DNA of 64,000 bases. It comes from a virus. Below are positions 43,962 through 58,032 of this stretch, piece by piece. The position numbers and the translations under genes are program-made. Position 1 is the first letter of the stretch, and every line of letters starts with the position of its first letter. Under the pieces are notes generated by a model. The model was not told where the DNA came from. It did no database searches and saw only the letters and a list, made by a program, of their open reading frames with translations. The stretch covers positions 51,478 through 115,477 of the IMG/VR virus record IMGVR_UViG_3300006931_000002. One strand, 5' to 3'.

Positions 43962-44645
43962 TCAACGCGGAAGGGGGTCGTGGTCCGGCGGGAAAGCCAG
44001 CGCCAAAAGGGCCTCCGGGTCCTCCACGAGCATCCGGGCGCGGTCCTCGCATCGGCAACCCTCCTGTCGATGTCGATACTGCGACCTGCTGGACATCGGC
44101 CTACCGCAGAACACGCATTCAGCGCCATCCTCGTGGGACGTGTACACATGCCTGTGGTCCCCGTCGAGAATCCCGATTGTCGACCCGCGAGCGCTATTGC
44201 ATGGCTGACAGGCCGCACGACCATTGGGAAGTACGCGCGCGCCTTTTCTGCTGGCGGGGCGTACATGTTCGAAGGTGGCGGCGGCGGTTCCTGGCGCAGC
44301 ACCCTCGATCGACAGCGGAACTCCACAGTGGCAGCAGGCCGGCCCGTCGCGCTCCAAGATCCACGCCAGAATTCGGTTTGAGTTCGACGTGGGCATGTGG
44401 ACGGTCGCGGTCCCGGCTTCAATGCGGGTGGCGCGCGCTTGGTTGCATGGCGCACAACTTGGCCGGATGTTGAGGGCTTGGTAGGTGCCACCTGCGCTCG
44501 GTGGTGTGATGAGTTCGGCGACAGCGGCAACCGTGCCGGACGTGAGGCCGTTGATGGATAGGCGGGCGCCGCAGCTCCAGCATCTGCCACTGGTCGTTCG
44601 CAATGCGCGTTCGAGGTTGCGCCGCTTGCGCCGATCGTCGGCCAC
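43962..44645 (-). CDS. Tandem-HNH endonuclease, antisense to late operon
   Basis: CWSC..AELITPPSAGG..CAPCN (degenerate) and CCHC..FEHVRP..CQPCN; TAGAAT 6 nt before GTG. Confidence 0.85.
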   Translation of the reverse strand: MADDRRKRRNLERALRTTSGRCWSCGARLSINGLTSGTVAAVAELITPPSAGGTYQALNIRPSCAPCNQARATRIEAGTATVHMPTSNSNRILAWILERDGPACCHCGVPLSIEGAAPGTAAATFEHVRPASRKGARVLPNGRAACQPCNSARGSTIGILDGDHRHVYTSHEDGAECVFCGRPMSSRSQYRHRQEGCRCEDRARMLVEDPEALLALAFPPDHDPLPR

Positions 44646-44700
44646 GTCACCATTCTACCTGCGGGAACAGGCTCGATCATGTGACCTTGGCGGGTGACCT

Positions 44701-45483
44701 GTGGCCACACCGGTCGTAGACGCCTCAATCAACTGGGATGCGTGGACCCCGGGTTCCATCCCCGCGGCCCGTCAAGCATCCAAGCTGGACGAGCTGATCG
44801 CCACCGCCGTCGGCCGCAACCCGAACTGGTCCGACCGGGCAGCACAACGCGGCAGCCTGCTCGCCTCGATCGAGGACCACCGTCTTGACCGTCTGGCCGC
44901 TGCGGTGACTGATGCGGTAGCCCGCGGCGACTCGGCCGACACCCTGGCCCGCACCCTGCGCGGAGTGTTGGACGACCCCCAGTGGGCCGGAATGGTTGCC
45001 ACTACTGAGATGGCGCGGGCGATGACAGCCGCGTCGATGGAGTCGTACAGGACGTCGGGCGTTGTTGAGGCCTACTCGATCCTCACGGCTAACGACGTCA
45101 GGGTGTGCCAGGACTGCCAGACCAACCAGGACGACGGGCCGTACCCGCTCGACACCGACCCACCCGCCGGCATTTGCCCCACCCATCCGGGTTGCCGATG
45201 TGCAGTGATCGCCGACACGATGCCGCTGGCCGACGCGCAGGCCATGGGCTACGTCCCTGGCATCTCCTCCGGCGCACTCGACGACACGCTGGGCAACGCC
45301 GAGGCTGAGGCGGAACCAACCGAACCGGCACCCCCACCGCCGGTCGACATCGCCCAGCACGACACCGTAGGCAGCACCCGCCACATGGATCCGTCCGCGG
45401 TCGCCGCCGCCCTGGCAGCACTCGGCGCCCGGCGGCAGGCACAACAGGACACCGCCGACGAGGAAGACGACGACGAGGAGTAG
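44701..45483 (+). CDS. MuF-like (SPP1 gp7) minor head protein, C-terminal part
   Basis: NWDAWTPG, ATTEMARA, DVRVCQDCQTN, PTHPGCRCA. Confidence 0.85.
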   Translation: MATPVVDASINWDAWTPGSIPAARQASKLDELIATAVGRNPNWSDRAAQRGSLLASIEDHRLDRLAAAVTDAVARGDSADTLARTLRGVLDDPQWAGMVATTEMARAMTAASMESYRTSGVVEAYSILTANDVRVCQDCQTNQDDGPYPLDTDPPAGICPTHPGCRCAVIADTMPLADAQAMGYVPGISSGALDDTLGNAEAEAEPTEPAPPPPVDIAQHDTVGSTRHMDPSAVAAALAALGARRQAQQDTADEEDDDEE

Positions 45484-45486
45484 CCG

Positions 45487-45780
45487 GTGGGCACGCTCGT
45501 CGATCTGTTCGGATGGCCCAACGGGAGCGTGCTGACCAACCTGATCGCCTCGCTGATCTGGGGCATGCCGGCCGCTGGACTGGCCGTCTGGCGTGCCCGT
45601 GTGCATCTCCGCCGACTTCACGGCCGCCACGACGCCCACGAACAGGCCGTGGCAGCATTGCACGCCGAAGTGAAGGTGCTGCGCCAAGAGCGTGTCGCCA
45701 CGATGCCGCCCGTCGACTACCGGAAGCTGCTCGACGAAGTCGAACGGCAGAAACGACGCAACGGGCACGGAGGCTTGTAG
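45487..45780 (+). CDS. Membrane protein
   Basis: WPNGSVLTNLIASLIW TM segment. Confidence 0.65.
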   Translation: MGTLVDLFGWPNGSVLTNLIASLIWGMPAAGLAVWRARVHLRRLHGRHDAHEQAVAALHAEVKVLRQERVATMPPVDYRKLLDEVERQKRRNGHGGL

Positions 45781-46178
45781 TGGCCGACCAGCCCGCCCAC
45801 CGGCCCTACACCGCCGAAGACCTCGGCCTCGATGACGAGCTGACGCCGATCGACGTCGACCCCCAGCTTGTCCAGGTCGACCGGGTCCACTATCAAAGGC
45901 CACGGTCGGAAGAGAAGGTTCTCGCGCTGATGGACAACCCGGAGGCCCGCGAAGCCCACCCGGTGCTGATCGGCGTGCGCAAGAGCGGATCTCTCCTGTC
46001 TGTTGACGGCCAGCACCGTCTTGAGGCAGCCATGCGGCTCGGAGATGAGTCGGTGCCCGCCCGCGCGTTCCTCTCCGACGGGTGGAAACAGGAACGAGAC
46101 GTCTACCTGCGGCTGGCCCAGTTCCACGAGGCGATGCACGCCCAGACCACAGGCGACGGGGATGGCGATGCGGGCTGA
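45780..46178 (+). CDS. ParB/Sulfiredoxin-like protein
   Basis: YQRPR..VDGQHRLEAA. Confidence 0.75.
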   Translation: MADQPAHRPYTAEDLGLDDELTPIDVDPQLVQVDRVHYQRPRSEEKVLALMDNPEAREAHPVLIGVRKSGSLLSVDGQHRLEAAMRLGDESVPARAFLSDGWKQERDVYLRLAQFHEAMHAQTTGDGDGDAG

Positions 46179-46389
46179 CCCGGACGACCTTGCCGCCCGC
46201 GTCCACGCCGTCCGCCTCGCCCTGACCTGCGACCCATCCCCGTTGGGGATCATCCTCGCTGACGTGCTGCTACCGATGGCGGTCGACGTGCTGGACGCAG
46301 ACCGGCCCAACTATCGGCGACTACAGGCCCTCGGGGACCTTGTCGGCCGGTGTGAGGCCGCGGTCGGACTGCCCACGCTGGTCGGCTAA
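46168..46389 (+). CDS. Hypothetical protein
   Basis: Overlapping ORF. Confidence 0.55.
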   Translation: MRADPDDLAARVHAVRLALTCDPSPLGIILADVLLPMAVDVLDADRPNYRRLQALGDLVGRCEAAVGLPTLVG

Positions 46390-46399
46390 GGAGGCTGCC

Positions 46400-46618
46400 A
46401 TGAGCTGGACCCGGCGGGGCTATCCGAGCAAGGGCGAACCTGTCGCGGACCTGCCTGAGCCGCCTACCGGACCCGGGCCAGGTGCCCGCGGGCTGGTGTC
46501 GCTCAACCCGCCGCCACCGATTCCGGTTGAGCGCAAACCTGACGGAACGCCGCCGCCCGACTTTGACGGCCGACCTTATAGAGGCACGGCGGGCCTCAAA
46601 GCCCGGGACGCCGGCTAG
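46400..46618 (+). CDS. Small Pro-rich protein
   Basis: AAGGAGG RBS; PEPPTGPGPGA. Confidence 0.6.
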   Translation: MSWTRRGYPSKGEPVADLPEPPTGPGPGARGLVSLNPPPPIPVERKPDGTPPPDFDGRPYRGTAGLKARDAG

Positions 46619-46740
46619 CACGACTCGACCCGCCGCCCTCTCCCACCATTCTGTCCCAGCCCTCGCGCGGCTGGTCCTTCAACCTCCCGCGAGGTGGTTT
46701 CGCCGCAGGTCGGGACAGGTCCGGAATGGCCGACAAGGGG

Positions 46741-46761
46741 TAGAATCGAACACGGGTTCGC
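46741..46761 (+). promoter_or_regulatory. TAGAAT -10 overlapped by SOS-like box
   Basis: TAGAAT 46741-46746; TCGAAC-ACGG-GTTCGC 46746-46761. Confidence 0.75.
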
Positions 46762-46840
46762 ATAAGCGAGCGGCCCGAGGTGGTGTTACGAGCACCAACC
46801 CCGGGCCTGACCGCACCACCTGTCGAGAGGTGTAACGGCT

Positions 46841-48112
46841 GTGGCCGAGGATACGTGCGAAGTCGAAGGCTGTATCGGCACGGGCCGGATCACGCGCGGC
46901 ATGTGTTCCAAGCACTACCAGCGGTGGCGGGCCACCGGCACCACCGATCTGATCTCCGGCAGGGTTGAGCGCCCGTGCGCGGTCGACGACTGTGATCGAC
47001 CGTTCCGGACCCGGGACTTGTGCGCGATGCACTACGCGCGGCTAATCAACTACGGGTCAACGGAGGACCCGCGCAACAGGCCAAAGCCGACCTGCGCGGC
47101 CGAAGAGCCCTGCAACAAGACCGCTACCGCTGGCGGATTGTGTGGTACGCACTACGCCCGGCGGCGCAAGCATGGGACCACGGCGGCGCTCCCCAAGAAG
47201 CCGATCCGGACCGAGTCCCCCTGCTCGGTTGAGGGCTGCACGGACCGTGTCCGGTCCAAGGGACTGTGTAACGCCCACTACCAGCAGTGGCGGAAGCCGC
47301 CCAAGCCTGAGCCGGTGCCCTGCGCGGTTGAAGGCTGTCCCGACCCGGCGTCACAAAGGTCTACGCGCGGCCTGTGCAGTACCCATCAGCGCCGGTGGAA
47401 CCAGACCGGCTCGACCGACAAGCCGGTGCGCAAGCGTGCCGAGTGCACGGTAGATGGCTGCACCGAGCCGAACCACTGCCGGGACTTCTGTAAGCGCCAC
47501 TACGAGCGCTGGCGTCGCAGCGGTGACCCGCTCGCCGCGAAGCGTGAGGTACGACGCCCACGGCTGCCTGAAGCGCTCGTGGGCGTTACAGAGAAGACGT
47601 GCTCGCGCTGCAAGGAGGTCCGGGCGCTCGTCGAGTTCAACAAGCGCACCGGCACCCCTGATGGCCTGTCCTACCACTGCAAGTACTGCGCGGCGCGGAT
47701 GCCGTCGGCGACCAAGCAGCGCGAGCGGTACCAGAACGACCCGGAGTTTCGGCGTCGCACCGCCGAACGCCTCAAGGCGATCGAAGCGGGCAAAGGCCCC
47801 GAGTGGAAGCGGCAGCGAAACCGCGAGTCCAAGCTCTGGCACAACTACCGGATGACCCTCACCGAGTTTGACGCGATGTCCGAGGCGCAGGGCCATGTCT
47901 GCCTGATCTGCAAGCGCCCGCCCTACGGCGGTCGGCCCGACGCGCGCAAGCAGTACCTGTCGGTTGACCACGATCACGTGACCGGCAAGATTCGCGGCCT
48001 GCTCTGCGACGGCTGCAACATCTCCATCGGCCACTTCTCCGACGACCCCGAGCGGCTGCGCGCGGCCCTCGCCTACCTGTTGATGCACGCCCCCGAGGCG
48101 GACGCGGCCTGA
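46841..48112 (+). CDS. Endonuclease VII with six N-terminal C3H zinc-finger-like repeats
   Basis: 6x C-x4/5-C..(R/K)xxC-xx-H(Y/Q); CSRC..CKYC; CLIC..VDHDHVTGKIRGLLCDGCN. Confidence 0.9.
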   Translation: MAEDTCEVEGCIGTGRITRGMCSKHYQRWRATGTTDLISGRVERPCAVDDCDRPFRTRDLCAMHYARLINYGSTEDPRNRPKPTCAAEEPCNKTATAGGLCGTHYARRRKHGTTAALPKKPIRTESPCSVEGCTDRVRSKGLCNAHYQQWRKPPKPEPVPCAVEGCPDPASQRSTRGLCSTHQRRWNQTGSTDKPVRKRAECTVDGCTEPNHCRDFCKRHYERWRRSGDPLAAKREVRRPRLPEALVGVTEKTCSRCKEVRALVEFNKRTGTPDGLSYHCKYCAARMPSATKQRERYQNDPEFRRRTAERLKAIEAGKGPEWKRQRNRESKLWHNYRMTLTEFDAMSEAQGHVCLICKRPPYGGRPDARKQYLSVDHDHVTGKIRGLLCDGCNISIGHFSDDPERLRAALAYLLMHAPEADAA

Positions 48113-48163
48113 GTTTCAGCGCGACTCCCTTGCGGGTTCATCCGCCCGTAAGGGAGCTTCGCC

Positions 48164-50065
48164 ATGCTCGCAGCCGAACGGTTGGACGTTTTCGCGCCCT
48201 TCCTCAAGAAGGAAAGGGACGCCGACGGCATCCTCTGGGTCGAGGGGAAGTTCACCGGCCCGGACCTGGACTCCGACGGCCAGCGGATGGACCCGACCTG
48301 GTTGCGGTCCTCGGCGGTCCCCGGATACATGCGGGGACCGTCCGGGGGGAACGTTCGTGAAGGCCACTCGGCTCAGAGGCCGATCGGCAAGGCCGTCGAG
48401 GTCTGGGAGACCGACGACGGTTCGTGGCACATGCGGGCGAAGATCGTCGATGACGCTGCCGCGAAGAAGATCGAGCATGGTGTCCTGGCGGGCCTGAGCG
48501 TCGGAATCGCGAATCCGGTGATTGTCAAGGCTGCCGACGCGCCCAATGGGTGCTGCGCGGGCGGAACCATGATCGAAGTCTCGGCGGTTGATCGCCCAGC
48601 GTTGCCGTCCGCCACGCTCCGTATCGCTGGCGTGCTGGACAAGGCTGCCGGCTCCCTCGAACTCGTCGAAGACCCCGCGCTCGAAGAAGACCTCGACGCC
48701 ATCGAGAAGGCGGCCGAGGGTGACGTCATCGCCCGCCCGCAGATGCTGCTCAAGACCTCGGACGGGCAGGTGCGCCCGATGACCGCCGCGCTCGTGGACG
48801 AACTCACCGCCCCGACCGTCGTCGCCAACCCTGACGACCCAGACGCGGCAGATCCCGAGGCGCTGGAGAAGGCGAAGAAGGGCAAGAAGGCCCCGCCGTT
48901 CGCCGCGGACGACAACCCGCAGGCCGACGACTCCGGAGACGACTCCGACGAGTCGGACGACGACGGAGACAAGGCCGAGAAGGCTGCGACCGTCGACGTG
49001 CCGTCGGTCGACCTGGATGCGATCGTGAAGGCGGTCGTCGCCGAACTGGAGAAGAAGAAGTTCACCCAGGCCGAACGCGACGACGCCGCCAACTCGGGTG
49101 CCGCGATGCCGGACGGTTCGTTCCCGATCCGCAACCGTACGGACCTGGAGAACGCGATCCACGCCGTCGGCCGGGCCAAGGACCCCGACGCAGCCAAGGC
49201 CCACATCGTCAAGCGTGCCAAGGCGTTGGACGCCACGGACCTGCTGCCCGCCGACTGGCCCGGCTCCACCAAGAAGACCGCCGAACCGGAGATGGTCAAG
49301 GGTGCCGGTGTCGACGACGAACTGGACGACATCGCCCGCGCCAAGCGCGTCCTCGCGGACTTGGCTGCGCTCGTGCAGTCCGAGGCTGCGGGCTTCCTCT
49401 CCGGCGGCGGCGCCGGTGAGGTCGCCGACATGGACATGCTTGTCAGCGTCATGGCGACCCTGACGTGCTTTGTGGAGCGCGAGACCTACGAATTGGAGGC
49501 CGCCGCCATGGCGGAGAACACTGCTGCCGGCGGCGACACCACCCCGGCTCCGACCGTGATGCAGCTCGCCGCAACCCCGGACGTCGAGAAGACGGCCGAG
49601 CCTGCCGCGCCCGCGGTCCCGAGCCTGTCGGACGAGCTTGCCCGCCGGCTCGACAAGGCCATGAAGAAGGCCCGCAAGGTTGCTGCGGCGAAGGCCGCCG
49701 CCGCCGCCCAGACCACCTCCCCCGAGGCGGCCAGCACCACTGACACCGAGACGCTGACAAAGGCTGTCGCCGACAAGGTGACCGCCGACCTGACGGTGCA
49801 GCTCGGCGACGTCCTCACGAAGGCCATGGGCCCGGTCATCGACCGGGTGGCAGAGGTGGAGACGCTGCTGAAGTCCACCCCGAGGCCGGGCGGACCCGCG
49901 GTGACGCGAGTTCAGCCCCCGGTGTCCCCCGCCGAATCCGTCGAGCGCGCGGAGAAGGCGCAGAAGGCGAACATCCTCAAGGGGATGCTTGCCGCGAACC
50001 CGGCCGGTCCGATGCGGGCGGCGCTCGTCGCCCAGCTCGCCGAACTGGAGCCGAACGCCGCCTGA
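48164..50065 (+). CDS. Prohead protease/scaffold fusion
   Basis: DSDGQ..NVREGH..GLSVG..EVSAVDRPA HK97-like protease; AMPDGSFPIRN..LENAI (DUF6582-like); acidic/Ala-rich scaffold tail. Confidence 0.85.
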   Translation: MLAAERLDVFAPFLKKERDADGILWVEGKFTGPDLDSDGQRMDPTWLRSSAVPGYMRGPSGGNVREGHSAQRPIGKAVEVWETDDGSWHMRAKIVDDAAAKKIEHGVLAGLSVGIANPVIVKAADAPNGCCAGGTMIEVSAVDRPALPSATLRIAGVLDKAAGSLELVEDPALEEDLDAIEKAAEGDVIARPQMLLKTSDGQVRPMTAALVDELTAPTVVANPDDPDAADPEALEKAKKGKKAPPFAADDNPQADDSGDDSDESDDDGDKAEKAATVDVPSVDLDAIVKAVVAELEKKKFTQAERDDAANSGAAMPDGSFPIRNRTDLENAIHAVGRAKDPDAAKAHIVKRAKALDATDLLPADWPGSTKKTAEPEMVKGAGVDDELDDIARAKRVLADLAALVQSEAAGFLSGGGAGEVADMDMLVSVMATLTCFVERETYELEAAAMAENTAAGGDTTPAPTVMQLAATPDVEKTAEPAAPAVPSLSDELARRLDKAMKKARKVAAAKAAAAAQTTSPEAASTTDTETLTKAVADKVTADLTVQLGDVLTKAMGPVIDRVAEVETLLKSTPRPGGPAVTRVQPPVSPAESVERAEKAQKANILKGMLAANPAGPMRAALVAQLAELEPNAA

Positions 50066-50088
50066 GCGGCATCCCCCACACCACTTCC

Positions 50089-50121
50089 AAGGCCCGTCAC
50101 CCCCGTCGGTGGCGGGCCTTT
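50089..50121 (+). terminator. Stem-loop between protease and capsid genes
   Basis: AAGGCCCGTCAC..GTGGCGGGCCTTT. Confidence 0.5.
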
Positions 50122-50144
50122 CGCATGCCCAGAAGGGGCACCAG

Positions 50145-51917
50145 ATGAGCACCGGCACCCACGGTGACCTCCGCGACCTGTTCGGCGCCGACCTGAGCCC
50201 CGCCGAACTGACCACCGCGGCGGTCAACTACAAGATGGCCGTCGACGCGGCCCCTTCCACAGTGAAGGGCGACGTCGAGGTCGACATCATCACCAAGTCG
50301 CTGCGCCCGACGGTCCGCGGCAACGCCCGCGACGTCCTGACGAAGGCGTATGGCGCGCTCGGCGCTGACCAGAACGCGATGGCCGCCATCGAGGCCGCCG
50401 TGGCGCAACAGCTCGGCTCGGACTTCCTGGCGAAGGACATCACGACCACATCACCGGTTCCCGGCGGCCTGGTTGCCTACGACCTGGAAGCGCCCAGCAA
50501 GATGCTCGCGCCGGTCCTCACCCCGTGGCGGAACAAGTTCCCCCGGAACAAGGGCGTCGGCACGTCCCACCGTTACAAGCGGATCACCGGCATCACCGGT
50601 TCCGGCACAGGTGGAGTGGGTGTCGTCCACCCCGGGTTCACCGACTCGACGCAGGTCAACTTCGCGAACCCGGGTTCGGCGAACTCGCAGTGGGCGAACC
50701 GCCCCCGGAAGATCTCCTACGCGGGTGACGACGTCAACCTGCCGTACGTCCAGTTCGGCCTGTCCGACGAGCAGTCGTGGTTCACCTACTTCACGGCGAT
50801 CGGTTTCCAGGACACCCGTGAACTGTCCCGGCAGTCCACCCTCTACTCGTCGATGATGGTCGAGGAGCGTGTCCTGCTCTACGGCCGCGGCACCCTCGGT
50901 GGCTACTCGGGTGTTCTCGCCGCCCCGACCGGCACCCCGACGGGTGCGGCCCGGACCGCGGCGACCGGTGAGACGGCGCTGACCGGCTTCACGACCAACA
51001 TCTACGTCAAGGTGGTCGCCGAGTCGGGCGAGTTCGGCGTCTCCCAGGTCAGCTCGGCGTCGGCCGGTATCGGAGTCTCCTCTGGCCAGGTCGTCGACAT
51101 CACCATTCCGAACCCGGTCGTCGGCGCCACCGGCTACAAGATCTTCGTGTCGACGGGTGCGTCCGACCCAGGTGATGCGTCGCGCTGGCTGTACCTCGGC
51201 CCGGCGTTCCCGAACAACCAGTCCCTCGGCCGCACCCCCACCCAGACGATCACGTTGCAGGGTGCGCTGCCGACGTCCGGCCAGTCCGTCGCCGCGTTCA
51301 CCTGCACCGACGGCACCGTCGTCAACCTGGCATCGGTCGACGGCCAGTCGGCCCGCTCCGACTCGTACGACGGCGTCATCCCGTGGATTCACGCCCAGGC
51401 GAGCACCACCGGCTATGTCGGCCGGCTCAACGCCCCGTTCTCGACCGCGTCGCCGGGCGCCGAGTTCCAGACGGCGTTCGTCACGACCTACGACGCGACC
51501 CGCGCCGACCCGGAGGAGATCTGGCTCGCCGCCCGCGACCGGGTCCAGATCTCCAACAGCCTCAAGGGCCAGTCGTCGAGCAACTACCGGCTGACCCTGT
51601 CCGAAGACCAGCTGATGAACGTCCGCCTCGGATCGCTCGTCACCGGTATTCAGAACGAGGCCACCGGACGGGTTGTGGACATCAACGTCCACCCCTACCT
51701 GCCGCAGGGCAACGCGGTCATCCTCCAGAACAGCATCACCATTCCCGGGGTGAACGTTCCGAACGCCTGGAATCTGTTCAACACCCAGGACTACATGGCG
51801 ATCGACTGGCCGGTTACCGGAATGTCGTACGATACCTCTGTGTATTGGGCCGGCACTCTGAGTAGCTATGCCCCGGACCGGTCGTCCATGCTGGTGGGAA
51901 TTCAGCCGGCGAGCTGA
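50145..51917 (+). CDS. Major capsid protein with inserted Ig/FN3-like domain
   Basis: YDLEAPSKML..TPWRNKFPR, EERVLLYG, NVHPYLPQG; position after protease. Confidence 0.85.
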   Translation: MSTGTHGDLRDLFGADLSPAELTTAAVNYKMAVDAAPSTVKGDVEVDIITKSLRPTVRGNARDVLTKAYGALGADQNAMAAIEAAVAQQLGSDFLAKDITTTSPVPGGLVAYDLEAPSKMLAPVLTPWRNKFPRNKGVGTSHRYKRITGITGSGTGGVGVVHPGFTDSTQVNFANPGSANSQWANRPRKISYAGDDVNLPYVQFGLSDEQSWFTYFTAIGFQDTRELSRQSTLYSSMMVEERVLLYGRGTLGGYSGVLAAPTGTPTGAARTAATGETALTGFTTNIYVKVVAESGEFGVSQVSSASAGIGVSSGQVVDITIPNPVVGATGYKIFVSTGASDPGDASRWLYLGPAFPNNQSLGRTPTQTITLQGALPTSGQSVAAFTCTDGTVVNLASVDGQSARSDSYDGVIPWIHAQASTTGYVGRLNAPFSTASPGAEFQTAFVTTYDATRADPEEIWLAARDRVQISNSLKGQSSSNYRLTLSEDQLMNVRLGSLVTGIQNEATGRVVDINVHPYLPQGNAVILQNSITIPGVNVPNAWNLFNTQDYMAIDWPVTGMSYDTSVYWAGTLSSYAPDRSSMLVGIQPAS

Positions 51918-51940
51918 CAGTCACAGCCCGACGGGGGTCT

Positions 51941-51963
51941 TCGAACACACATTCGGATAGAAT
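51941..51963 (+). promoter_or_regulatory. SOS-like box plus TAGAAT, leaderless HNH promoter
   Basis: TCGAAC-ACAC-ATTCGG, TAGAAT 51958-51963, GTG 51970. Confidence 0.7.
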
Positions 51964-51969
51964 CCGTGT

Positions 51970-52557
51970 GTGTCTGAGATTCCCGTCGGGCTGTGTCAAT
52001 GCGGGTGTGGCGAGAAGACATACATTCCGCGCCAGAGTCGACCTGCACTTGGCTGGATCAATGGTGTCCCGTGTCGATGGAAACGCGGACATGCGCCCGC
52101 GTGGAACCGCCGCGAGACCCATTGGACCGAGAGCGACACTGGATGCTGGGTCTGGCTTGGGCCATTCGATGAGCATGGCTACGGGGTGGGCACTCGGCGA
52201 CTTGGCCGGAACAACTGGCGAAACGTCGCTGCCCACCGGGCCGTCTATGAGGAACTCGTCGGCCCGATCCCGGACGGCTTGGTCCTCGACCACCTGTGCC
52301 GGAATCCTCCTTGCGTGAACCCGGAGCACCTAGAGCCGGTCACCCAGAAAGTGAACGTGCAGCGCGGTCTCTGTCTCAAGCTGACCGAAGACGAGTTGCC
52401 TCGCATCTACGAACTGACGATGCAGGGCACTCCGTCGCGCGTGATCGCCGGCATGTACGGCGTCGGCAAGTCCACGATCAACGCCCGGCTCGACGCCTAC
52501 ATCAAGGCCAACAACCTTCCCGCGCTGCCGCGTCTCAGGAAGCCGCGCCCCGCCTAG
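51970..52557 (+). CDS. HNH homing endonuclease
   Basis: CQCGCG, CWVW..GYG, AHRAVYE..LDHLCRNPPCVNPEHL, C-terminal HTH. Confidence 0.92.
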   Translation: MSEIPVGLCQCGCGEKTYIPRQSRPALGWINGVPCRWKRGHAPAWNRRETHWTESDTGCWVWLGPFDEHGYGVGTRRLGRNNWRNVAAHRAVYEELVGPIPDGLVLDHLCRNPPCVNPEHLEPVTQKVNVQRGLCLKLTEDELPRIYELTMQGTPSRVIAGMYGVGKSTINARLDAYIKANNLPALPRLRKPRPA

Positions 52558-52607
52558 CTCCCCGCCCCCACTACTCCGGGGCGGGGCCTACTCGCCCCGG
52601 AGTACCC

Positions 52608-52928
52608 ATGCAGGTCTATCCGATCATCGGGTCGCCGTTCCAGATCGAAACGGTTCCCGCCTCGAACGGTGTGGTGACACTCCAACTCGTCGCCCGCGGC
52701 AACTTCAACCTCCCCGGCGCGGGTTTCGCCGCGGTCCTCGCGCAGATCAACACCTACCTGTCGTCGTCGAAGTGCACGTCGATTCTGCGGCTCACCAGCT
52801 CGCAGACCGGGGTTGCCGTCGCCCTCGACGTGTCCGGATGCTCCTACCCGGTCCTGACCGCTGACGTTGCCTCGCAGGTATCGGCGCTGACGACGATCGT
52901 GCAGACCGCGGCGGATGTGAGCGTCTGA
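52608..52928 (+). CDS. Hypothetical virion-associated protein
   Basis: GGAG RBS; late operon. Confidence 0.65.
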   Translation: MQVYPIIGSPFQIETVPASNGVVTLQLVARGNFNLPGAGFAAVLAQINTYLSSSKCTSILRLTSSQTGVAVALDVSGCSYPVLTADVASQVSALTTIVQTAADVSV

Positions 52929-53209
52929 TGGTCGCGTCACCGAACCCGCCGTTCATCACCGGCAACGTCACAGCCACGTCGGGTGGCGTTTCGATCCCGG
53001 TCGAGACCATCAAGCCGGCGCCGGGCCTGGCGGGTGCGGTGACGCTGATCGCCGGAACAGCGGCAGTCACGCTGACCGGGCCGACCTGCCCGACCGGGTT
53101 TGTGCTGCCCGTCGGCGTGCCTGTGTCGCTGATGCTCGGCGGCACGAAGTTGACCGCCACATCGGGCGGCACCGGGGTCATTTCCTACGCGTACGCCACG
53201 GGAGGCTGA
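52928..53209 (+). CDS. Small beta-rich virion protein
   Basis: TGATG-coupled; G/T/V-rich. Confidence 0.65.
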   Translation: MVASPNPPFITGNVTATSGGVSIPVETIKPAPGLAGAVTLIAGTAAVTLTGPTCPTGFVLPVGVPVSLMLGGTKLTATSGGTGVISYAYATGG

Positions 53210-53214
53210 TTTCG

Positions 53215-53466
53215 TTGCGCATGGCGTCACCGGACGGGGCGTGTATCGGCCTCGATGTGCAGACCGAACACGGCAAGACCTCGTACAACGGCCGCATCTT
53301 CGATGTCGAGAGCCCTCGGCATATTCGCATGCTCCGCGAGCAGGGTGCGTTTCCTGTCGGCGTCGGCGGGACACCTCGCGCGGCCGGTCATCCCTGCCCC
53401 TGCGGGTTTCAGAGCTGGTTTCGTCGTTGCTCCAGGTGCGGGCGCGACAACCCGAAGGAGAACTGA
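53215..53466 (+). CDS. Zinc-ribbon protein
   Basis: CPCGFQSWFRRCSRCG. Confidence 0.7.
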   Translation: MRMASPDGACIGLDVQTEHGKTSYNGRIFDVESPRHIRMLREQGAFPVGVGGTPRAAGHPCPCGFQSWFRRCSRCGRDNPKEN

Positions 53467-53468
53467 CG

Positions 53469-54335
53469 ATGGCCACGGCCTACCGTTTCGCCCGCATCGT
53501 CGCACCGGATGGTGTGAACCCGATCCGGTCGACGACGATCACCGCGAAGCTGCCGGGAACGTCGACGACTGTCACCCTGTATACCGATCCGACGCTGGCA
53601 ACGGTGCTGTCCGGTGCCGGGCAGTTCACGACTGACGTCAACGGCTTCGCCCAGTGGGCGACGACGGTTGGGACTGTCGACTTCTACAACGGCAGCACGC
53701 TCATCGAGTCGAACGTGTCGGTTCCCCGGTTCGACCCGGTCGACGCCCCGCTGAACGCGTCGGGTGGTCTGTCGTCGGCCTACACCGGTCAGGCGGGTTT
53801 CGCGCTCGATGGCTCTCCGTCGGGGGTCTACTACGCGAACATGTCCCGGCGGGATGCTGGGACCGACCTGGCCGCGTTCACGTCGAACACGATGCTGTCG
53901 ACGGCGATCTGGCTCCCTGCCGGCGCGGTCGTCACCAACTTGACGTTCGTGTCCGGGGCGACCGCCGCAGCCGGGCCGACGCACAGCTTCGCCGCGCTCT
54001 ACTCGACGGCGGCAACTCCGGCGCTGCTCGCTAACTCCGCGGATGCGACGAACACTGTCGTCTGGGCGGCGGAGACGGCCTACACCTATGCGATGTCGAG
54101 CCCGTACACGGTCACGACGTCGGGTGTGTACTACGCCGCCCTGTCGATCACCGACGGTACGACGATGCCGTCGATCGTCGGTATCGGCCGGGCGGGTGCG
54201 GGCGCGTCGAAGGCTGTGATCTCGGGGAACAAGCAGATCTCGCAGACCTCCGGTTCGTCCCTGAACGGCACTCCCCCGGCGACGATCACCGGTTCGACCG
54301 CATCCGGCAAGATCCCCCTGGTCATCGTCACCTGA
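53469..54335 (+). CDS. Virion structural/fibre protein
   Basis: AAGGAG RBS; FTTDVNG N-domain; T/A/G-rich beta domain. Confidence 0.75.
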   Translation: MATAYRFARIVAPDGVNPIRSTTITAKLPGTSTTVTLYTDPTLATVLSGAGQFTTDVNGFAQWATTVGTVDFYNGSTLIESNVSVPRFDPVDAPLNASGGLSSAYTGQAGFALDGSPSGVYYANMSRRDAGTDLAAFTSNTMLSTAIWLPAGAVVTNLTFVSGATAAAGPTHSFAALYSTAATPALLANSADATNTVVWAAETAYTYAMSSPYTVTTSGVYYAALSITDGTTMPSIVGIGRAGAGASKAVISGNKQISQTSGSSLNGTPPATITGSTASGKIPLVIVT

Positions 54336-54634
54336 TGGCCGGTCAGACCCGTCGTACCTCCGGCCCGCGTCCGCAACAGCAGGCGCGGGCCGTGCAGGTC
54401 TCACCGCCTGTCGTCGATATCCCACCGGAGACACCGCCGGTCGAACCTGCCGAGGTTCCGCCCGGCGAGGTCGCCGCACCGGTCGAGCCGCCGCCGTTCG
54501 ACGCGGACGATCCGCGGCCCGGCCAGTCGATCCGCGCCCACGTCCCCCACTCGGGCTACACGAGTTTCGCCTACGGGCATCGCTCGTTCACCGTCGACCC
54601 GGAAACGGATCTGATCGTCGCCGAAACCGGCTGA
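54335..54634 (+). CDS. Pro-rich hypothetical protein
   Basis: TGATG-coupled. Confidence 0.65.
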   Translation: MAGQTRRTSGPRPQQQARAVQVSPPVVDIPPETPPVEPAEVPPGEVAAPVEPPPFDADDPRPGQSIRAHVPHSGYTSFAYGHRSFTVDPETDLIVAETG

Positions 54635-54703
54635 ACTTCCCCCCCGTACCCTCCCGCCCGCCGCGCCGCGGGCTGATTCTCCACGCCCGAAAGGGGCTGC
54701 GCG

Positions 54704-55255
54704 ATGCGCGAGGACGTTTCCCGGGCGGTCGACGCTGCCCATGTTGGTGCGGCCGTGGCCGACCATGAGCCGGCCCGGTGGCGTTGCAACTGGCGCCTGG
54801 AGAAGCGGTGGGGCGATGACCAGAGCGTCGACCCGTACGAGGTCATCGAGCGGGAAGGCAACCTTCTGCTGTATGGCGGGGCGTCGCTCATCTGGGAGAC
54901 CTTGATCGGCAACGGTGGAGCGGGGGCGTTGCAGTATCTGAACTCCGGTCACGCTTTCTTGGGGGTGGGCGATAGCTCGACCGCTGAGGCCGCGACCCAA
55001 ACGGATCTGCAAGCAGCAACGAACAAGACCTACAAGGCTGCGACGCCTTCGCACACGGACGGGACGTCTTCGGGAAACGCCTCGATCACCTACAGTGCCA
55101 CGTTCGCCACGGGTGACGCCAACTATACTTGGTCTGAGTGGTTGCTAACCAATGCCGCGTCAGGAGGCCGCGCGCTGAATAGAAAAGTTGCGGCACTCGG
55201 TGTCAAAACGTCTGCCGCGTCGTGGGCGCTATCTGTGACAATCACGTTGTCGTAG
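54704..55255 (+). CDS. Virion structural protein
   Basis: GNLLLYGG..LGVGDSSTAEAATQTDLQ..ANYTWSEW..LNRKV..GVKTS. Confidence 0.75.
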   Translation: MREDVSRAVDAAHVGAAVADHEPARWRCNWRLEKRWGDDQSVDPYEVIEREGNLLLYGGASLIWETLIGNGGAGALQYLNSGHAFLGVGDSSTAEAATQTDLQAATNKTYKAATPSHTDGTSSGNASITYSATFATGDANYTWSEWLLTNAASGGRALNRKVAALGVKTSAASWALSVTITLS

Positions 55256-55283
55256 TTGATCGCGGCGACTGACGTCATGCCGA

Positions 55284-55312
55284 CCGAACGGGCGTTCGAT
55301 TTCATGTAGAAT
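55284..55312 (+). promoter_or_regulatory. SOS-like box plus TAGAAT promoter
   Basis: CCGAAC-GGGC-GTTCGA, 7 nt, TAGAAT. Confidence 0.75.
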
Positions 55313-55384
55313 AGGTGTGGGCGAAGAGGTGCAACTCTCCGCCCACGTGCCGAACCATCCTTGGGCGAGAAGGAGTGGCCCGAC

Positions 55385-56372
55385 GTGGCCGATGGTATCT
55401 GCGTCAACGACGGCTGTGAACTGCCTCGTTACGTGAAGGAGCGATGCAAGAAGCACTACCGGGCGTGGCACCGCAAGTACGGCACCCCGAGGGTGCATGT
55501 CGAGCGGCCTACGGTCTGCACCGTGGAGGGCTGCGACCAGCCTGTCACAGCCCGCGATCTGTGCCCGATGCACTACCAGCGTTGGCGGACGAAGGGCGAC
55601 CCCGGCCCGGCCGACCCGCACCGGATCCGTGGCCCACGCGTCAAGCTCTGCTCGGTAGAGGGCTGCGGCGAAATGGTGAAGGCGCGTGGCTGGTGCAGCA
55701 TGCACTACGCGCGAGTCATCCGCCATGGAGAACCCGGCGGCCCCGACATCCAGCGCCTCCCCCTCGATGCCGAGCGGGCACCCTGCAAGATCGATGGCTG
55801 CGAGAAGCCTGCAAGCCGTCAGGGTAAGGGCTGGTGTTGGACCCACTACGGGCGCTACAGGACGGCAGGTGATCCCGGCCCAGCCGAGATCGGCTCCTAC
55901 CGGTCGCGGACTGGTGAGTGCGAGATCGGCGGCTGCGGCAGGCCGATCCAGTCCGACCGGCTTTGCCAGATGCACTACCCGCAGGTTGCAGGGCAAGGAC
56001 GTGACAGCACCAGTTCGTCGGGCTCGCGGCGACGGTCACATCACTCGCGATGGCTACCGGACCATCACTGTCGACGGCAAGCAGATGCTAGAACACCGGG
56101 CCGTGATGGAACAGTTGATCGGTCGCCCGTTGGCTCCCGGCGAGAAGGTCCATCACATCAACGGGAACAAGATCGACAATTCGCCGGCGAATCTTCAGCT
56201 TTGGTTCAAGGGTCAACCAGCCGGTCAGCGGGTCTCTGACCTGATCGCCTACATCGCCGAGTTCCACGCCGACGCGGTCCGAGCTGAGATCCGCCGGCAG
56301 GAACGCGAGCGTCGTACCGGCCAGCTTCGTCTCGAAGGCATGCCTGCCGCGCATGTGTCCGAAGTTTCCTAG
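55385..56372 (+). CDS. HNH endonuclease with five C3H zinc-finger-like repeats; +1 frameshift at CCC 55978-55980
   Basis: LCQMHY continues as RRLQGK..EHRAVME..VHHINGNKIDNSPANL if one C is removed. Confidence 0.8.
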
Positions 56373-56409
56373 CCGCATGAGCTGAGACGCACGGAGGTGA
56401 TGAGCCTCC

Positions 56410-58032
56410 GTGCCGACCTATCCGATCGCACCCACGCTGCCCGCGCACGACCAGGCCGCCTGGGACACCACGCTCAACACTGCCCTGACGACGATCGTCG
56501 ACCGGGTCAACACCCACGCCGACCAGCACGCCACAGGCGGCGGCGACGCCATCACCCCGGCGAACATCGGCGCAGTAGCCACCCAGACCACCGCGGCTTC
56601 CACATCGGCTGTGGTGCTCGCCGTCAAACAGGCCGCGGACCTTCTCGCCCGGGTGGGTCTGCTCGCGGACGGCACGATCGTGTCCGGCGACGCTCCGCTG
56701 ACGATTTCCAACGTGACCGGGACGTCGACGGTCACGGTCACGACCAGCACGAACCATGGCTATGGCACGGGCGACGTGGTCACGATCTCCGGGGTTGGCG
56801 GGATTACCGGCGTCAACGGCGTCAAAACGATCACGAAGGTTGCTCCCACCCAGTTCACGTTGAACAGCACGACCGGCGCAGGGTCCTACACCTCCGGTGG
56901 CACCGTTCAACGCAACCTCGGCGGTACCGGGTCCACCAACGAAGGTGTCTGGAATCTTCTCCTGCCCGACACGTCCCGTGACGGGCTTGTCGTACGTGGC
57001 CGGGAATCGTCGACGAAAAACCTGATCCTCGCCCGCGACTATGCCGGCGCCCCGATCTTCGGTGTCGGCCAGGTCGGCGGAGCGACCATGTATTCGGGGC
57101 TTGCCTCCGATGCGATCGGCACCGCGCCGACAGTCACCACCCGGGCATCTGTCATCACCGCCGGCGGCGGTATCCGGGGTGCGGCCGGTGACCCTGCCGG
57201 CGGCGTGGACGTGCTCGCGCTCGGTAACTCGTCGACCCCGCCGACCGGTAACCCGGACGGGTCGCACCAGGCGGAAGGGTCGTTCGCGACTTCTGAGGGC
57301 ACGGTCACCTGGTCGCGGAACGGACGGCTGCGCAGTCGCAGCGCCGCAGGCCATGAGGATGAGCTGGCCGCCCCGGTCGAGCGGCGCACCCAAACAGTGG
57401 CCGCACCGGGCGGCGACACGGCCCTCACGTACACGGGCACGCTGCCGCCGTCGGTAGCCGTCGTCAACATCACCGCCACGTCGGACGATCAGGCCGAGGG
57501 GCCTTTGGTCCGCTACACGACCACCGCGGCCACCAACGTGGATGCGGGGCTGCTCTCGCCGTTCGGTGTGGTACAGCCACGGTGGGCGCCTTACCTTGTC
57601 GCGCGGATCAGAACAGACCCGTCGGCGATTACCAGCACGCGGATCGGCGTGGGGCTGGTCTCCGCTGACATTGCCTCCAACATGGGGCCGTCGGTTTCCG
57701 GTGCCTACACGACTGCGGCCGGGGCGTTTGTCCGCTACTCGTCGGCGGCGGATGGTACAGCCGCCTGGCGTACGGTGACCGGCGACGGGTCGAACGCCAC
57801 GGTGAATACGGCGTCGGTGTCGATTGCGTCGGATACGTCCTATCTGATCGCCATCGAGGTCAACGCGGCGAACACCGCCATCCGCTTTTGGATCAACGGC
57901 ACTCTGGTGGCCACCCATACCACCAATCTTCCGCCCGGGTCGACCGCGTTGGGCTACACAGCCCGGCTGCGAACCTTGTCGTCATCGGCGCGGGCGATCC
58001 GCATCGGCCGAATGGTGGTGACGTCCCTGTGA
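56410..58032 (+). CDS. Fibre/minor virion protein
   Basis: HADQHATGGGDAITPANIGA; TTSTNHGYGTGDVVTISGV (FCCH-like); lectin-like C-terminus. Confidence 0.8.
   Translation: MPTYPIAPTLPAHDQAAWDTTLNTALTTIVDRVNTHADQHATGGGDAITPANIGAVATQTTAASTSAVVLAVKQAADLLARVGLLADGTIVSGDAPLTISNVTGTSTVTVTTSTNHGYGTGDVVTISGVGGITGVNGVKTITKVAPTQFTLNSTTGAGSYTSGGTVQRNLGGTGSTNEGVWNLLLPDTSRDGLVVRGRESSTKNLILARDYAGAPIFGVGQVGGATMYSGLASDAIGTAPTVTTRASVITAGGGIRGAAGDPAGGVDVLALGNSSTPPTGNPDGSHQAEGSFATSEGTVTWSRNGRLRSRSAAGHEDELAAPVERRTQTVAAPGGDTALTYTGTLPPSVAVVNITATSDDQAEGPLVRYTTTAATNVDAGLLSPFGVVQPRWAPYLVARIRTDPSAITSTRIGVGLVSADIASNMGPSVSGAYTTAAGAFVRYSSAADGTAAWRTVTGDGSNATVNTASVSIASDTSYLIAIEVNAANTAIRFWINGTLVATHTTNLPPGSTALGYTARLRTLSSSARAIRIGRMVVTSL

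What the first reader, a model, noticed from the sequence alone, without database searches (positions are those of the whole stretch)
46841..56372. The same tandem C3H zinc-finger array is fused to two unrelated nuclease domains
Seen: a ~30-40 aa repeat C-x4/5-C-x(9-12)-C-x2-H-Y-x-R-W occurs six times before an EndoVII domain (46841) and five times before an HNH_3-type domain (55385). Residues between the conserved C/H vary (RITRGM, RTRDL, RSKGL, VKER, TARDL, KARGW, QSDRL). Inference: a modular, shufflable nucleic-acid recognition array attached to interchangeable nucleases, i.e. a natural zinc-finger-nuclease architecture in which repeat identity and number may encode the target.
Basis: partly seen in the sequence, partly recalled or inferred. 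Interest (0 to 1): 0.72.

Follow-up and report, generated by a model that had tools for sequence, protein, structure and literature searches.

The report
Zinc-finger arrays on phage homing nucleases
Two selfish DNA-cutting genes of a large soil phage carry the same kind of tandem zinc-finger array in front of different cutting domains; the design is very common but untested, and one of the two genes is already broken.

Summary
The repeats are real. ORF1 (46841-48112) has six C-x4/5-C-x9-12-C-x2-H units, then a CxxC zinc ribbon and an intact Endonuclease VII domain. ORF2 has five units (55400-55978), but its HNH_3 domain lies in another reading frame. A 2-bp deficit at 55979, also present in an independent metagenome run, separates array and nuclease.

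Both genes, and a third HNH_3 gene (51970-52557), are discrete cassettes between conserved head and tail genes. They are absent, truncated or replaced in sister phages, as expected of free-standing homing endonucleases.

A profile of the 11 repeats finds 33,758 protein clusters, with up to 15 matched repeat stretches per protein. Partners include EndoVII, HNH_3, classical HNH, HNH_2, a PF04480/PF18741 protein, HTH domains, or none. The modular, interchangeable architecture is therefore supported.

EndoVII and HNH_3 are not unrelated, since both are His-Me fingers. A "recognition code" is untested. The repeat overlaps Pfam Zf_WRKY19 and PHROG "HNH endonuclease" families, occurs in cultured phages, and this scan noted it before on other DNA.

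Verdict: a new member of a known, uncharacterised kind. The closest experimental work is Xu & Gupta 2013.

The parts
46705..48158 (.). About 1.45-kb cassette holding ORF1, present here and in L001 but absent from sister phages L002 and L003
   Evidence: blastn: L002 6097-6147 and L003 6107-6157 match window 46647-46704. They then run directly into the match to window 48159-48400, the start of the protease gene. tblastn: no ORF1 hit at this position in L002 or L003 (only weak repeat-region matches at the ORF2 site of L002); 100% identity in L001.
46841..48112 (+). ORF1: six-finger array + CxxC zinc ribbon + helical linker + Endonuclease VII domain (423 aa), apparently intact
   Evidence: GTG start preceded by GAGAGGTG. 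AlphaFold2 mean pLDDT 81.7.
46856..47500 (+). Six C3H zinc-finger repeats of ORF1 (aa 6-220). Repeat 3 (C-x5-C, aa 85-104) is degenerate and of low model confidence
   Evidence: pLDDT is about 38-44 over aa 83-119 and 76-95 for most of the other finger blocks.
47585..47680 (+). CxxC...CxxC zinc ribbon (aa 249-280) that belongs to the EndoVII-type scaffold, not to the repeat array
   Evidence: Sequence. Strands E251-280 in the model. phrog_2633 and phrog_2914 'endonuclease VII' cover aa 249-416.
47834..48079 (+). Endonuclease VII (His-Me finger) catalytic domain, aa 332-413
   Evidence: Pfam PF02945 at 82.3 bits against a cut-off of 23.6. PDB sequence hits Hpy99I 3fc3 and T4 endo VII 1e7d. Foldseek Hpy99I E 3.4e-4. 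C354, C357, D376, H377, C392 and N393 are invariant in 46 sequences.
55361..55978 (+). ORF2 frame A: five C3H zinc-finger repeats (first Cys at 55400, last H-Y ending at 55978). The gene caller's product starts at 55385 (P0001, 284 aa)
   Evidence: 61% identity to P0003 residues 1-149 in the BLASTP alignment, whose real correspondence ends at ...CQMHY, about residue 137.
55976..55982 (+). Frameshift site: TAC-C-CGC, one base where the intact relative has a codon (2-bp deficit)
   Evidence: The identical sequence is in the independent run X2, contig 55867-56192.
55980..56372 (+). ORF2 frame B: HNH_3-type nuclease part, still open and 75% identical to P0003, but out of frame with the array. Pfam HNH_3 match at 56094-56201
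   Evidence: (phrog_20891, E 5.6e-24).

Best explanation
ORF1 and ORF2 are free-standing homing-endonuclease-type selfish genes of a 115-kb phage. Each was built by putting a tandem array of about 41-residue C3H zinc modules in front of a His-Me-finger nuclease. Each module has a C-x4-C knuckle in a hairpin and C-x2-H at the start of a basic HYxRW helix.

The array is most likely the DNA-targeting part (inferred). It would hold the enzyme on a long site in the allele of a related phage that lacks the gene. The tethered nuclease would nick or cut nearby, and repair from the gene-carrying genome would copy the cassette in.

ORF1 (six fingers + zinc ribbon + EndoVII) looks functional. ORF2 (five fingers + HNH_3) has lost the fusion through a 2-bp deficit between array and nuclease, and is a decaying copy.

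Shown here: the repeats, the domains, the frameshift, the cassette boundaries, the presence/absence among sister phages, and the breadth of partner domains. Inferred: zinc binding, DNA binding, sequence specificity and homing.
For: Repeats and domains.

Discrete cassettes:
- ORF1 sits in a 1,454-bp insert absent from L002 and L003.
- The third nuclease gene, 51970-52557, lies in the 698 bp between the MCP and next-gene matches (51919-52616), where the near-identical L001 has 92 bp.

Decay series at the ORF2 site:
- P0003 is an intact fusion.
- The window copy is frameshifted.
- G001 has a 102-aa remnant: two fingers plus the last 8 residues, after loss of the stretch matching window 55652-56342.
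- G002 has five fingers + HNH_2/HNH at the same site.
- L008 has two fingers followed by a region with an HNH_3-like sequence pattern by eye (no Pfam scan run) directly after its capsid gene.

Modularity: partner tallies. There are 33,758 clusters at E<=1e-3. The start-to-start period has a median of 41 aa, inter-quartile range 39-44, over 1,106 intervals.

Structure: the fingers fold confidently, with mean pLDDT 88.5 for a two-finger unit. The helix starts at the third Cys.

Conservation and variation: basic or aromatic residues are conserved (R24 77%, W25 54%, R/K26-27). The most variable positions are 12-13, 19-20 and 23, that is the loop and the helix start.

Nuclease core: catalytic residues are intact. 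ORF1 ends 24 residues after the stretch that aligns to T4 endo VII residues 14-68, so it lacks the C-terminal half of that 157-aa enzyme. It resembles Hpy99I, whose nuclease is C-terminal.

Precedent (PMC3592412; abstract and passages read): deleting the N-terminal zinc-ribbon domain of N.phiGamma relaxes its specificity. Extra zinc motifs in Bth193 add a recognised base. Nuclease domains are exchangeable.
Against: No experiment or computation here shows zinc or DNA binding by this repeat.

The best structural match of a single finger is the A20-type finger, a ubiquitin binder, and it is weak: Z 2.9, rmsd 1.1 A over 31 residues; Foldseek E 3.3.

The repeat profile does not detect N.phiGamma (score -0.7), so the experimental precedent is an analogue and not a shown homologue.

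Of the 130 high-scoring proteins scanned, 62 have no recognised nuclease domain, so the array also exists apart from nucleases.

Most of each finger is conserved. Variability at about five positions is expected for any surface and does not prove a code.

No target site was identified.
Confidence: 0.68

Rival explanations
1. The array binds DNA without reading sequence. It would act as a non-specific or structure-specific clamp that raises affinity or spacing, while the nuclease domain and the zinc ribbon set the specificity.
For: Most finger positions are conserved, including the basic helix (R24, R/K26-27), as expected for backbone contacts. In N.phiGamma the minimal HNH domain keeps much of its specificity without the zinc-ribbon domain (PMC3592412, passage read).
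Against: Finger number ranges from 1 to 14 and arrays diverge faster than the nuclease: 61% against 75% identity to P0003. That fits target tracking better than a generic clamp. Extra zinc motifs added a recognised base in Bth193.
Confidence: 0.15
2. ORF1 serves the phage itself. It would be a Holliday-junction resolvase like T4 endonuclease VII, or a packaging-associated HNH like HK97 gp74, rather than a selfish element.
For: It has an EndoVII domain and sits within the head-gene block, downstream of the portal (41395-43527) and the Mu F-like gene.
Against: It is absent from two sister phages, one of which is a 100%-complete genome with terminal repeats, and they hold no other copy of the repeat elsewhere. 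It is not adjacent to the probable terminase. It lacks the C-terminal half of T4 endo VII.
Confidence: 0.07
3. The fingers are protein-interaction modules of A20 type, recruiting the nuclease to a host or phage protein rather than to a DNA sequence.
For: The best single-finger superposition is on A20 ZnF7 and ZnF4 (rmsd 1.1-1.3 A over 31 residues, TM 0.74-0.75 normalised to the target). The ligand spacing also seems alike, though the A20 pattern is recalled and comes from no call.
Against: The scores are not significant (Z 2.9, E 3.3). The partners are nucleases and HTH DNA-binding domains.
Confidence: 0.05
4. ORF2 is still active despite the frame break, either by +1 ribosomal frameshifting at TAC-C-CGC or as a two-protein pair of array protein plus separately started nuclease.
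For: Frame B stays open for 131 codons after the break, with 75% identity to P0003. The H-H-I-N-G-N...N motif is read from the sequence. Side-by-side zinc-ribbon protein plus HNH pairs exist in nature (group 4 of PMC3592412, passage read).
Against: The site has no recognisable slippery re-pairing. The candidate internal starts (TTG 55986, GTG 56001) lack a properly spaced ribosome-binding site (read). A sister phage shows outright deletion at this locus, so decay is the local trend.
Confidence: 0.1

Closest known systems
Natural zinc-ribbon HNH nicking endonucleases of phages and prophages (N.phiGamma, N.BthT13001I; Xu & Gupta, NAR 2013, PMC3592412)
   Same: A small Cys/His zinc motif sits N-terminal to a His-Me nuclease. 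N.phiGamma starts with one C-x4-C-x8-C-x2-H unit. The zinc part modulates or extends sequence specificity, and the nuclease domains are swappable (passages).
   Different: Those enzymes have one to four zinc sites, a classical HNH domain, lie next to cos/terminase, and recognise 3-7 bp. Here there are 5-6 (family: up to 15 matched stretches) tandem fingers, EndoVII or HNH_3 domains, and intergenic cassettes in head and tail modules. The window-derived profile does not hit N.phiGamma.
Pfam PF24906 Zf_WRKY19 (zinc finger domain named after plant WRKY19)
   Same: A 24-position model covers the C...C...C-x2-H core. Of the 130 scanned profile relatives, 48 reach its 27-bit cut-off.
   Different: The window's proteins stay below the cut-off: ORF1 19.5 bits whole and 25.2 bits for the array alone; ORF2 8.3 bits. 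The Pfam entry gives no function, and I saw no description beyond its name.
Free-standing homing endonucleases of phages (for example T4 Seg/Mob, I-HmuI-type HNH_3 enzymes with NUMOD/HTH modules)
   Same: Intergenic cassettes between conserved genes, sporadic distribution among close relatives, and a nuclease tethered to modular DNA-binding units (PMC5714182 group 2, passage read).
   Different: The DNA-binding part here is a zinc-finger array instead of NUMOD, HTH or AP2 modules. Homing has not been demonstrated.
Cys-rich repeat proteins in deposited phages: Gordonia phage ClubL gp149 (HNH endonuclease), Mycobacterium phage Optimus gp33 (endonuclease VII), Bacillus phage 0305phi8-36 gp9/gp10 ('may contain zinc fingers')
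   Same: The same repeat is detected by the window's profile: ClubL gp149 has 4 repeats (E 2.2e-20), gp9 and gp10 have 3 each (E about 1e-27 to 1e-28), and Optimus gp33 is weak (E 2.5e-7).
   Different: Finger numbers and nuclease partners differ, and gp9 and gp10 have no nuclease domain. None is characterised in the records.
Engineered zinc-finger nucleases (C2H2 array + FokI)
   Same: The logic is the same: a tandem zinc-finger array tethered to a nuclease.
   Different: The finger type differs (C2H2 beta-beta-alpha against a C3H knuckle plus helix). Foldseek matches to C2H2 arrays are insignificant (E 0.7-9). The nuclease differs, and no recognition code is known.

Membership tests
Endonuclease VII (Pfam PF02945; His-Me finger) | Profile match above the curated cut-off | tested here: met
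   ORF1 aa 332-413: 82.3 bits against 23.6.
Endonuclease VII (Pfam PF02945; His-Me finger) | Zinc ligands and catalytic Asp/His/Asn of the beta-beta-alpha-Me core | tested here: met
   C354, C357, D376, H377, C392 and N393 are invariant in 46 aligned sequences. They align to the T4 endo VII and Hpy99I motifs. Foldseek Hpy99I E 3.4e-4.
T4-type Holliday-junction resolvase | C-terminal half of T4 endo VII beyond the nuclease core (a dimerisation domain, from recall) | tested here: not met
   The match covers T4 residues 14-68 of 157, and ORF1 ends 24 residues after it.
HNH_3 (Pfam PF13392, I-HmuI type) | Profile match above the cut-off, in one frame with the rest of the protein | tested here: not met
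   The match is 29.4 bits against 24.8, but only in the frame of 55686..56372. The array is in the frame of 55361..56239.
Pfam PF24906 Zf_WRKY19 | Whole-protein score of at least 27 bits | tested here: inconclusive
   ORF1 scores 19.5 bits (array alone 25.2) and the ORF2 array 8.3. Of 130 proteins found with the window's repeat profile, 48 pass, so the repeat is at least a sister of that family.
Free-standing homing endonuclease gene | Discrete cassette between conserved genes, present or absent among close relatives | tested here: met
   ORF1 cassette 46705-48158; the 51970-52557 gene within the 698-bp stretch 51919-52616. ORF2 site variants.
Free-standing homing endonuclease gene | Cuts the cassette-free allele and is copied into it | not testable with these tools
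   Needs cleavage and co-infection assays.
Zinc-ribbon HNH nickases (Xu & Gupta 2013) | Sequence relationship of the zinc motif to N.phiGamma's N-terminal domain | tested here: inconclusive
   The ligand pattern is the same, C-x4-C-x8-C-x2-H, but the 11-repeat profile scores -0.7. That profile is narrow.
Zinc-ribbon HNH nickases (Xu & Gupta 2013) | Gene next to cos/terminase; classical HNH with [CxxC]2 | tested here: not met
   ORF1 lies after the portal and the Mu F-like gene, about 5.7 kb from the probable terminase ORF at 39488-41101, which has no Pfam hit. The nuclease families are EndoVII and HNH_3.
Zinc-binding domain | Binds Zn through the four invariant ligands | not testable with these tools
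   Only the invariance of C, C, C and H and a confident knuckle-plus-helix model are available. The models carry no metal.

The most novel reading that the evidence does not exclude
The C3H finger is a natural, modular DNA-reading unit. Each roughly 41-residue finger would read a few base pairs through the variable positions at the loop and helix start (profile positions 12-13, 19-20 and 23). Arrays of up to about 14-15 fingers would then spell long homing sites. This would give a second, prokaryotic/viral zinc-finger 'code' that evolution already couples to at least five nuclease types and that could be re-programmed.
Probability: 0.15. Interest if true: 0.8.

Novelty: new member of a known kind. 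Interest (0 to 1): 0.4.

Why it matters
On its own this locus is an ordinary set of phage homing-endonuclease genes, one of them decaying.

Its value is as a clean, well-bounded example of a very large family that nobody seems to have characterised: at least 33,758 clusters at 50% identity. The example offers an apparently intact enzyme (ORF1), cassette-free sister alleles that define where the target should lie, and a decay and replacement series at one site.

If the fingers read DNA modularly, the family would be a natural counterpart of engineered zinc-finger nucleases and a source of compact DNA-targeting modules. If they do not, the family still accounts for a large share of the 'HNH endonuclease' and 'hypothetical Cys-rich' annotations in actinophage genomes.

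Tried and rejected
- **Near-identical DNA in deposited phages:** none found for 44000-57000.
- **NCBIfam:** no family for ORF1 or either ORF2 frame at E<=1.
- **PDB by sequence:** only the EndoVII core matched. The one row on the finger region (2ena, E 0.34) is noise.
- **Foldseek with the whole ORF1 model:** the finger array gave only insignificant C2H2/CTCF rows (E about 1-6). I do not treat these as evidence of a C2H2 relationship.
- **Two-finger model:** Foldseek found nothing at E<=0.001. VIA-align over 48,161 chains found 3 chains at Z>=2, the best being A20 ZnF7 at Z 2.9. This is a lead on fold type only.
- **Repeat profile against N.phiGamma:** no match.
- **Literature searches:** no paper describing this tandem C3H array. 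PMC11855218 (passages read) concerns an HNH with flanking CxxC fingers, not this repeat. PMC5714182 does not mention it.
- **The listing of cluster members:** I could not see the second member of the P0001 and P0083 clusters.
- **Read laying:** contigs of X3 and X4 do not bridge 55979 with 31 letters on both sides, so only X2 counts as independent support for the frameshift.
- **ESM Atlas:** the nearest clusters are 'hypothetical protein', some carrying PF24906. Nothing further.
- **Finger-by-finger comparison of the window's and G002's five-finger arrays at the shared site:** by eye no shared variable residues, so no inference drawn.
- **'ParB-like' label for 45780-46178:** I had used this label by eye. 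Pfam gives no hit, so it is dropped.

Full report
**Setting**

The window is the last 64 kb of a single 115,477-bp virus record with about 67% G+C. The region of the finding is the head-to-tail structural block:
- portal (41395-43527, Pfam Phage_portal);
- Mu F-like head protein (44701-45483);
- small ORFs;
- ORF1;
- a 633-aa protein labelled protease/scaffold by position only (no Pfam hit);
- a 591-aa protein labelled major capsid by position only (no Pfam hit), which retrieves syntenic relatives;
- an HNH_3 gene (51970-52557);
- head-tail genes;
- ORF2;
- probable tail-fibre genes.

I did not test that.

**Observation**

ORF1 (46841-48112, 423 aa) has six units of C-x4/5-C-x9-12-C-x2-H. ORF2 has five in the frame of 55361-56239. 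In the alignment of the 11 units, the three Cys and the His are invariant and Tyr follows His in 10 of 11. The consensus is xxCxVEGCxxPxxxRGLCxxHYxRWRxxGxP.

A strict regex over all six frames of the whole genome matched eight times, all inside these two genes. The looser pattern, run on the two proteins only, finds all 11. ORF1 carries Pfam Endonuclease_7 at aa 332-413 (E 2.3e-23), with the zinc ligands and the D376/H377/N393 core invariant among 46 relatives.

The statement about ORF2 needs correction. The HNH_3 match (E 6e-7) lies in the frame of 55686-56372, not in the array's frame. The closest intact relative, P0003 (269 aa, HNH_3), aligns to frame A up to ...CQMHY. It aligns to frame B from the next-but-one residue to the end (97 of 129 identical, no gaps).

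The DNA reads CAC TAC C CGC AGG (55973-55985), with one base where P0003 has a codon. A contig from an independent rhizosphere run (X2) covers 55867-56192 with no difference. The break is therefore a real allele rather than a private assembly error. X3 and X4 do not bridge the site adequately. The database's own gene call for this locus is the 284-aa frame-A product without a nuclease (P0001).

**What the genes are**

Three sister genomes or fragments were recovered through the capsid protein.

*ORF1.* It is 100% identical in L001. In L002 (a 115,125-bp genome with terminal repeats, 100% complete by CheckV) and in L003 (99,986 bp) there is no ORF1 between the 132-aa ORF (45780-46178) and the protease gene (tblastn gave only weak repeat-region matches at the ORF2 site of L002). 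The DNA alignment places the breakpoints at 46704|46705 and 48158|48159, giving a 1,454-bp cassette.

*The HNH_3 gene at 51970-52557.* It lies in the 698 bp between the MCP and next-gene matches (51919-52616). The otherwise near-identical L001 has 92 bp at that place.

*The ORF2 site.* It lies between the 54704-55255 gene and the 56410 tail gene, and shows a series:
- P0003 is an intact array-HNH_3 fusion from another contig whose context I did not see.
- The window copy is frameshifted.
- G001 (the genome of L002) keeps a 102-aa ORF with two fingers joined directly to the last eight residues. The stretch matching window 55652-56342 is deleted.
- G002 (the genome of L003) has, at the same site, a 435-aa protein with five fingers fused to a different nuclease: HNH_2 at 26 bits and HNH at 24.9 bits.
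- L008, a more distant relative, has two fingers followed by a region that looks HNH_3-like by eye (no Pfam scan run), directly after its capsid gene.

Discrete intergenic cassettes, patchy distribution among close relatives, and decay in place are the signature of free-standing homing endonuclease genes. They argue against an essential phage function for ORF1.

**How widespread, and with what partners**

A 33-position profile of the 11 window repeats found 33,758 proteins at E<=1e-3 among 1.84 billion cluster representatives. Of these, 10,817 were at E<=1e-10 and 728 at E<=1e-30, with up to 15 matched stretches in one protein.

The start-to-start period has a median of 41 aa and an inter-quartile range of 39-44.

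Partner domains among the 82 relatives of the ORF2 array:

| Partner | Count |
|---|---|
| EndoVII | 16 |
| HNH_3 (one with NUMOD4) | 24 |
| HNH PF01844 | 13 |
| HTH only | 2 |
| Zf_WRKY19 only | 3 |
| No Pfam domain (including the window's own product) | 24 |

Partner domains among 130 of the top 150 profile hits. Nine new proteins were left out for the size limit and 11 were already known:

| Partner | Count |
|---|---|
| EndoVII | 15 |
| HNH_3 | 21 |
| HNH | 31 |
| HTH | 1 |
| No nuclease domain at E<=1e-5 | 62 |

One search adds HNH_2 (P0131) and PF04480/PF18741 (P0148). From recall this is a Vsr-like, non-His-Me nuclease fold, and it was seen in 1 of 87 proteins.

Two caveats apply. EndoVII and HNH_3 are both His-Me fingers (PMC5714182). 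And nearly half of the strongest arrays have no recognisable nuclease. Some of these may be decayed genes like ORF2 and G001's remnant; others carry HTH domains.

**Structure**

AlphaFold2 on ORF1 with 46 sequences gave mean pLDDT 81.7.
- Five of the six fingers are confident. Each shows short bridges around the first two Cys and a 10-residue helix starting right after the third Cys.
- Finger 3 (C-x5-C) and its linker are below pLDDT 50.
- Residues 249-280 form a small sheet (the CxxC...CxxC ribbon).
- Residues 281-349 are helical.
- The C-terminus is the nuclease core.

Foldseek found only Hpy99I (E 3.4e-4) and T4 endo VII (E 0.007-0.03).

A two-finger unit folded alone reached pLDDT 88.5. 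Its best single-finger superpositions are A20-type fingers: rmsd 1.1-1.3 A over 31 residues, Z 2.6-2.9; Foldseek E 3.3-3.5 with target-normalised TM 0.74-0.75. This is not significant and serves only as a lead. It suggests the unit is a knuckle-plus-helix (treble-clef-like) finger rather than a C2H2 finger.

Across 1,406 unique repeats the scaffold is strongly conserved: C, C, C, H, Y22, R24, G7, G16, G29. The highest entropy is at positions 13, 19, 23, 12 and 20, that is the loop before the third Cys and the first turn of the helix. This placement is compatible with a base-reading surface, but it is not evidence of one.

**Mechanism proposed**

Shown:
- two (with 51970-52557, three) nuclease cassettes with the population behaviour of homing endonuclease genes;
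- an intact His-Me core in ORF1;
- a broken fusion in ORF2.

Inferred:
- each finger binds one zinc through C, C, C and H;
- the array lies along DNA and provides a long recognition site;
- the tethered nuclease nicks or cuts the cassette-free allele of a co-infecting relative near the insertion point;
- recombinational repair copies the cassette.

ORF1 lacks the C-terminal half of T4 endo VII, which from recall is the dimerisation domain needed for junction resolution. It has the C-terminal nuclease placement of Hpy99I, which fits a site-directed enzyme better than a resolvase.

The only experimental support comes from analogues. In phage zinc-ribbon HNH nickases, deleting the N-terminal zinc domain relaxes specificity, extra zinc motifs add a recognised base, and nuclease domains can be exchanged (PMC3592412; abstract and passages read). 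N.phiGamma has one C-x4-C-x8-C-x2-H unit at its N-terminus, but my narrow profile does not detect it.

**Comparison and novelty**

The repeat is already in databases, though without a function:
- PHROGs 5351 and 1271, 'HNH endonuclease' (E 1e-45 and 1e-30 for ORF1).
- Pfam PF24906 Zf_WRKY19, which 48 of the 130 scanned relatives pass while the window's proteins fall just short.
- Deposited phages: ClubL gp149, Optimus gp33, and 0305phi8-36 gp9/gp10, the last annotated 'may contain zinc fingers'.

Earlier notes of this scan describe the same finger type on other DNA. Six full-text searches found no paper that characterises the tandem array. Subscription journals are mostly outside that library.

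I therefore class the locus as a new member of a known but uncharacterised kind. The bold reading, a modular finger-by-finger code, remains open at about 15%.

Noticed in passing
window 51970-52557 (+): A third nuclease gene (195 aa) without the finger array. It has HNH_3 (E 5.9e-13) plus a zf-His_Me_endon match below Pfam's cut-off (24.6 bits against 27). It lies in the 698 bp between the MCP and next-gene matches (51919-52616), where the near-identical contig L001 has only 92 bp.
   Followed up: partly
window 48164-50065 against L001 3697-5418: The protease/scaffold-like gene is only 71% identical in protein to its L001 counterpart, while the flanking ORF1 and capsid genes are 100% identical. 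This is a sharp mosaic patch between two nuclease cassettes and could be a recombination or co-conversion tract.
   Followed up: no
L008 6376-7251 (+): The two-finger protein (HNH_3-like by eye, no Pfam scan) that follows the capsid gene also carries, at its C-terminus, two copies of a second Cys/His unit of the form CVNGHP.TEENT...G...CR.CNREK.AE.R.
   Followed up: no
window 56410-58032 (+): The 540-aa probable tail protein downstream of ORF2 matches Pfam E1_FCCH (ubiquitin-activating enzyme FCCH domain; 47.4 bits against a cut-off of 29.5) at aa 106-167. This is an odd domain for a phage tail gene.
   Followed up: no
window 46730-46840: Inside the ORF1 cassette, upstream of the GTG start, lie a TAGAAT hexamer (about 46742) and a GAGAGGTG ribosome-binding-like site (about 46826-46833). 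The sigma-70 consensus scan found no promoter, so whether the cassette has its own promoter is open.
   Followed up: partly
P0168, P0173, P0181: The longest arrays seen have 14, 15 and 13 matched repeat stretches in proteins of 886, 576 and 535 aa. P0168 has its HNH_3 domain in the middle (aa 616-657) with fingers on both sides.
   Followed up: no
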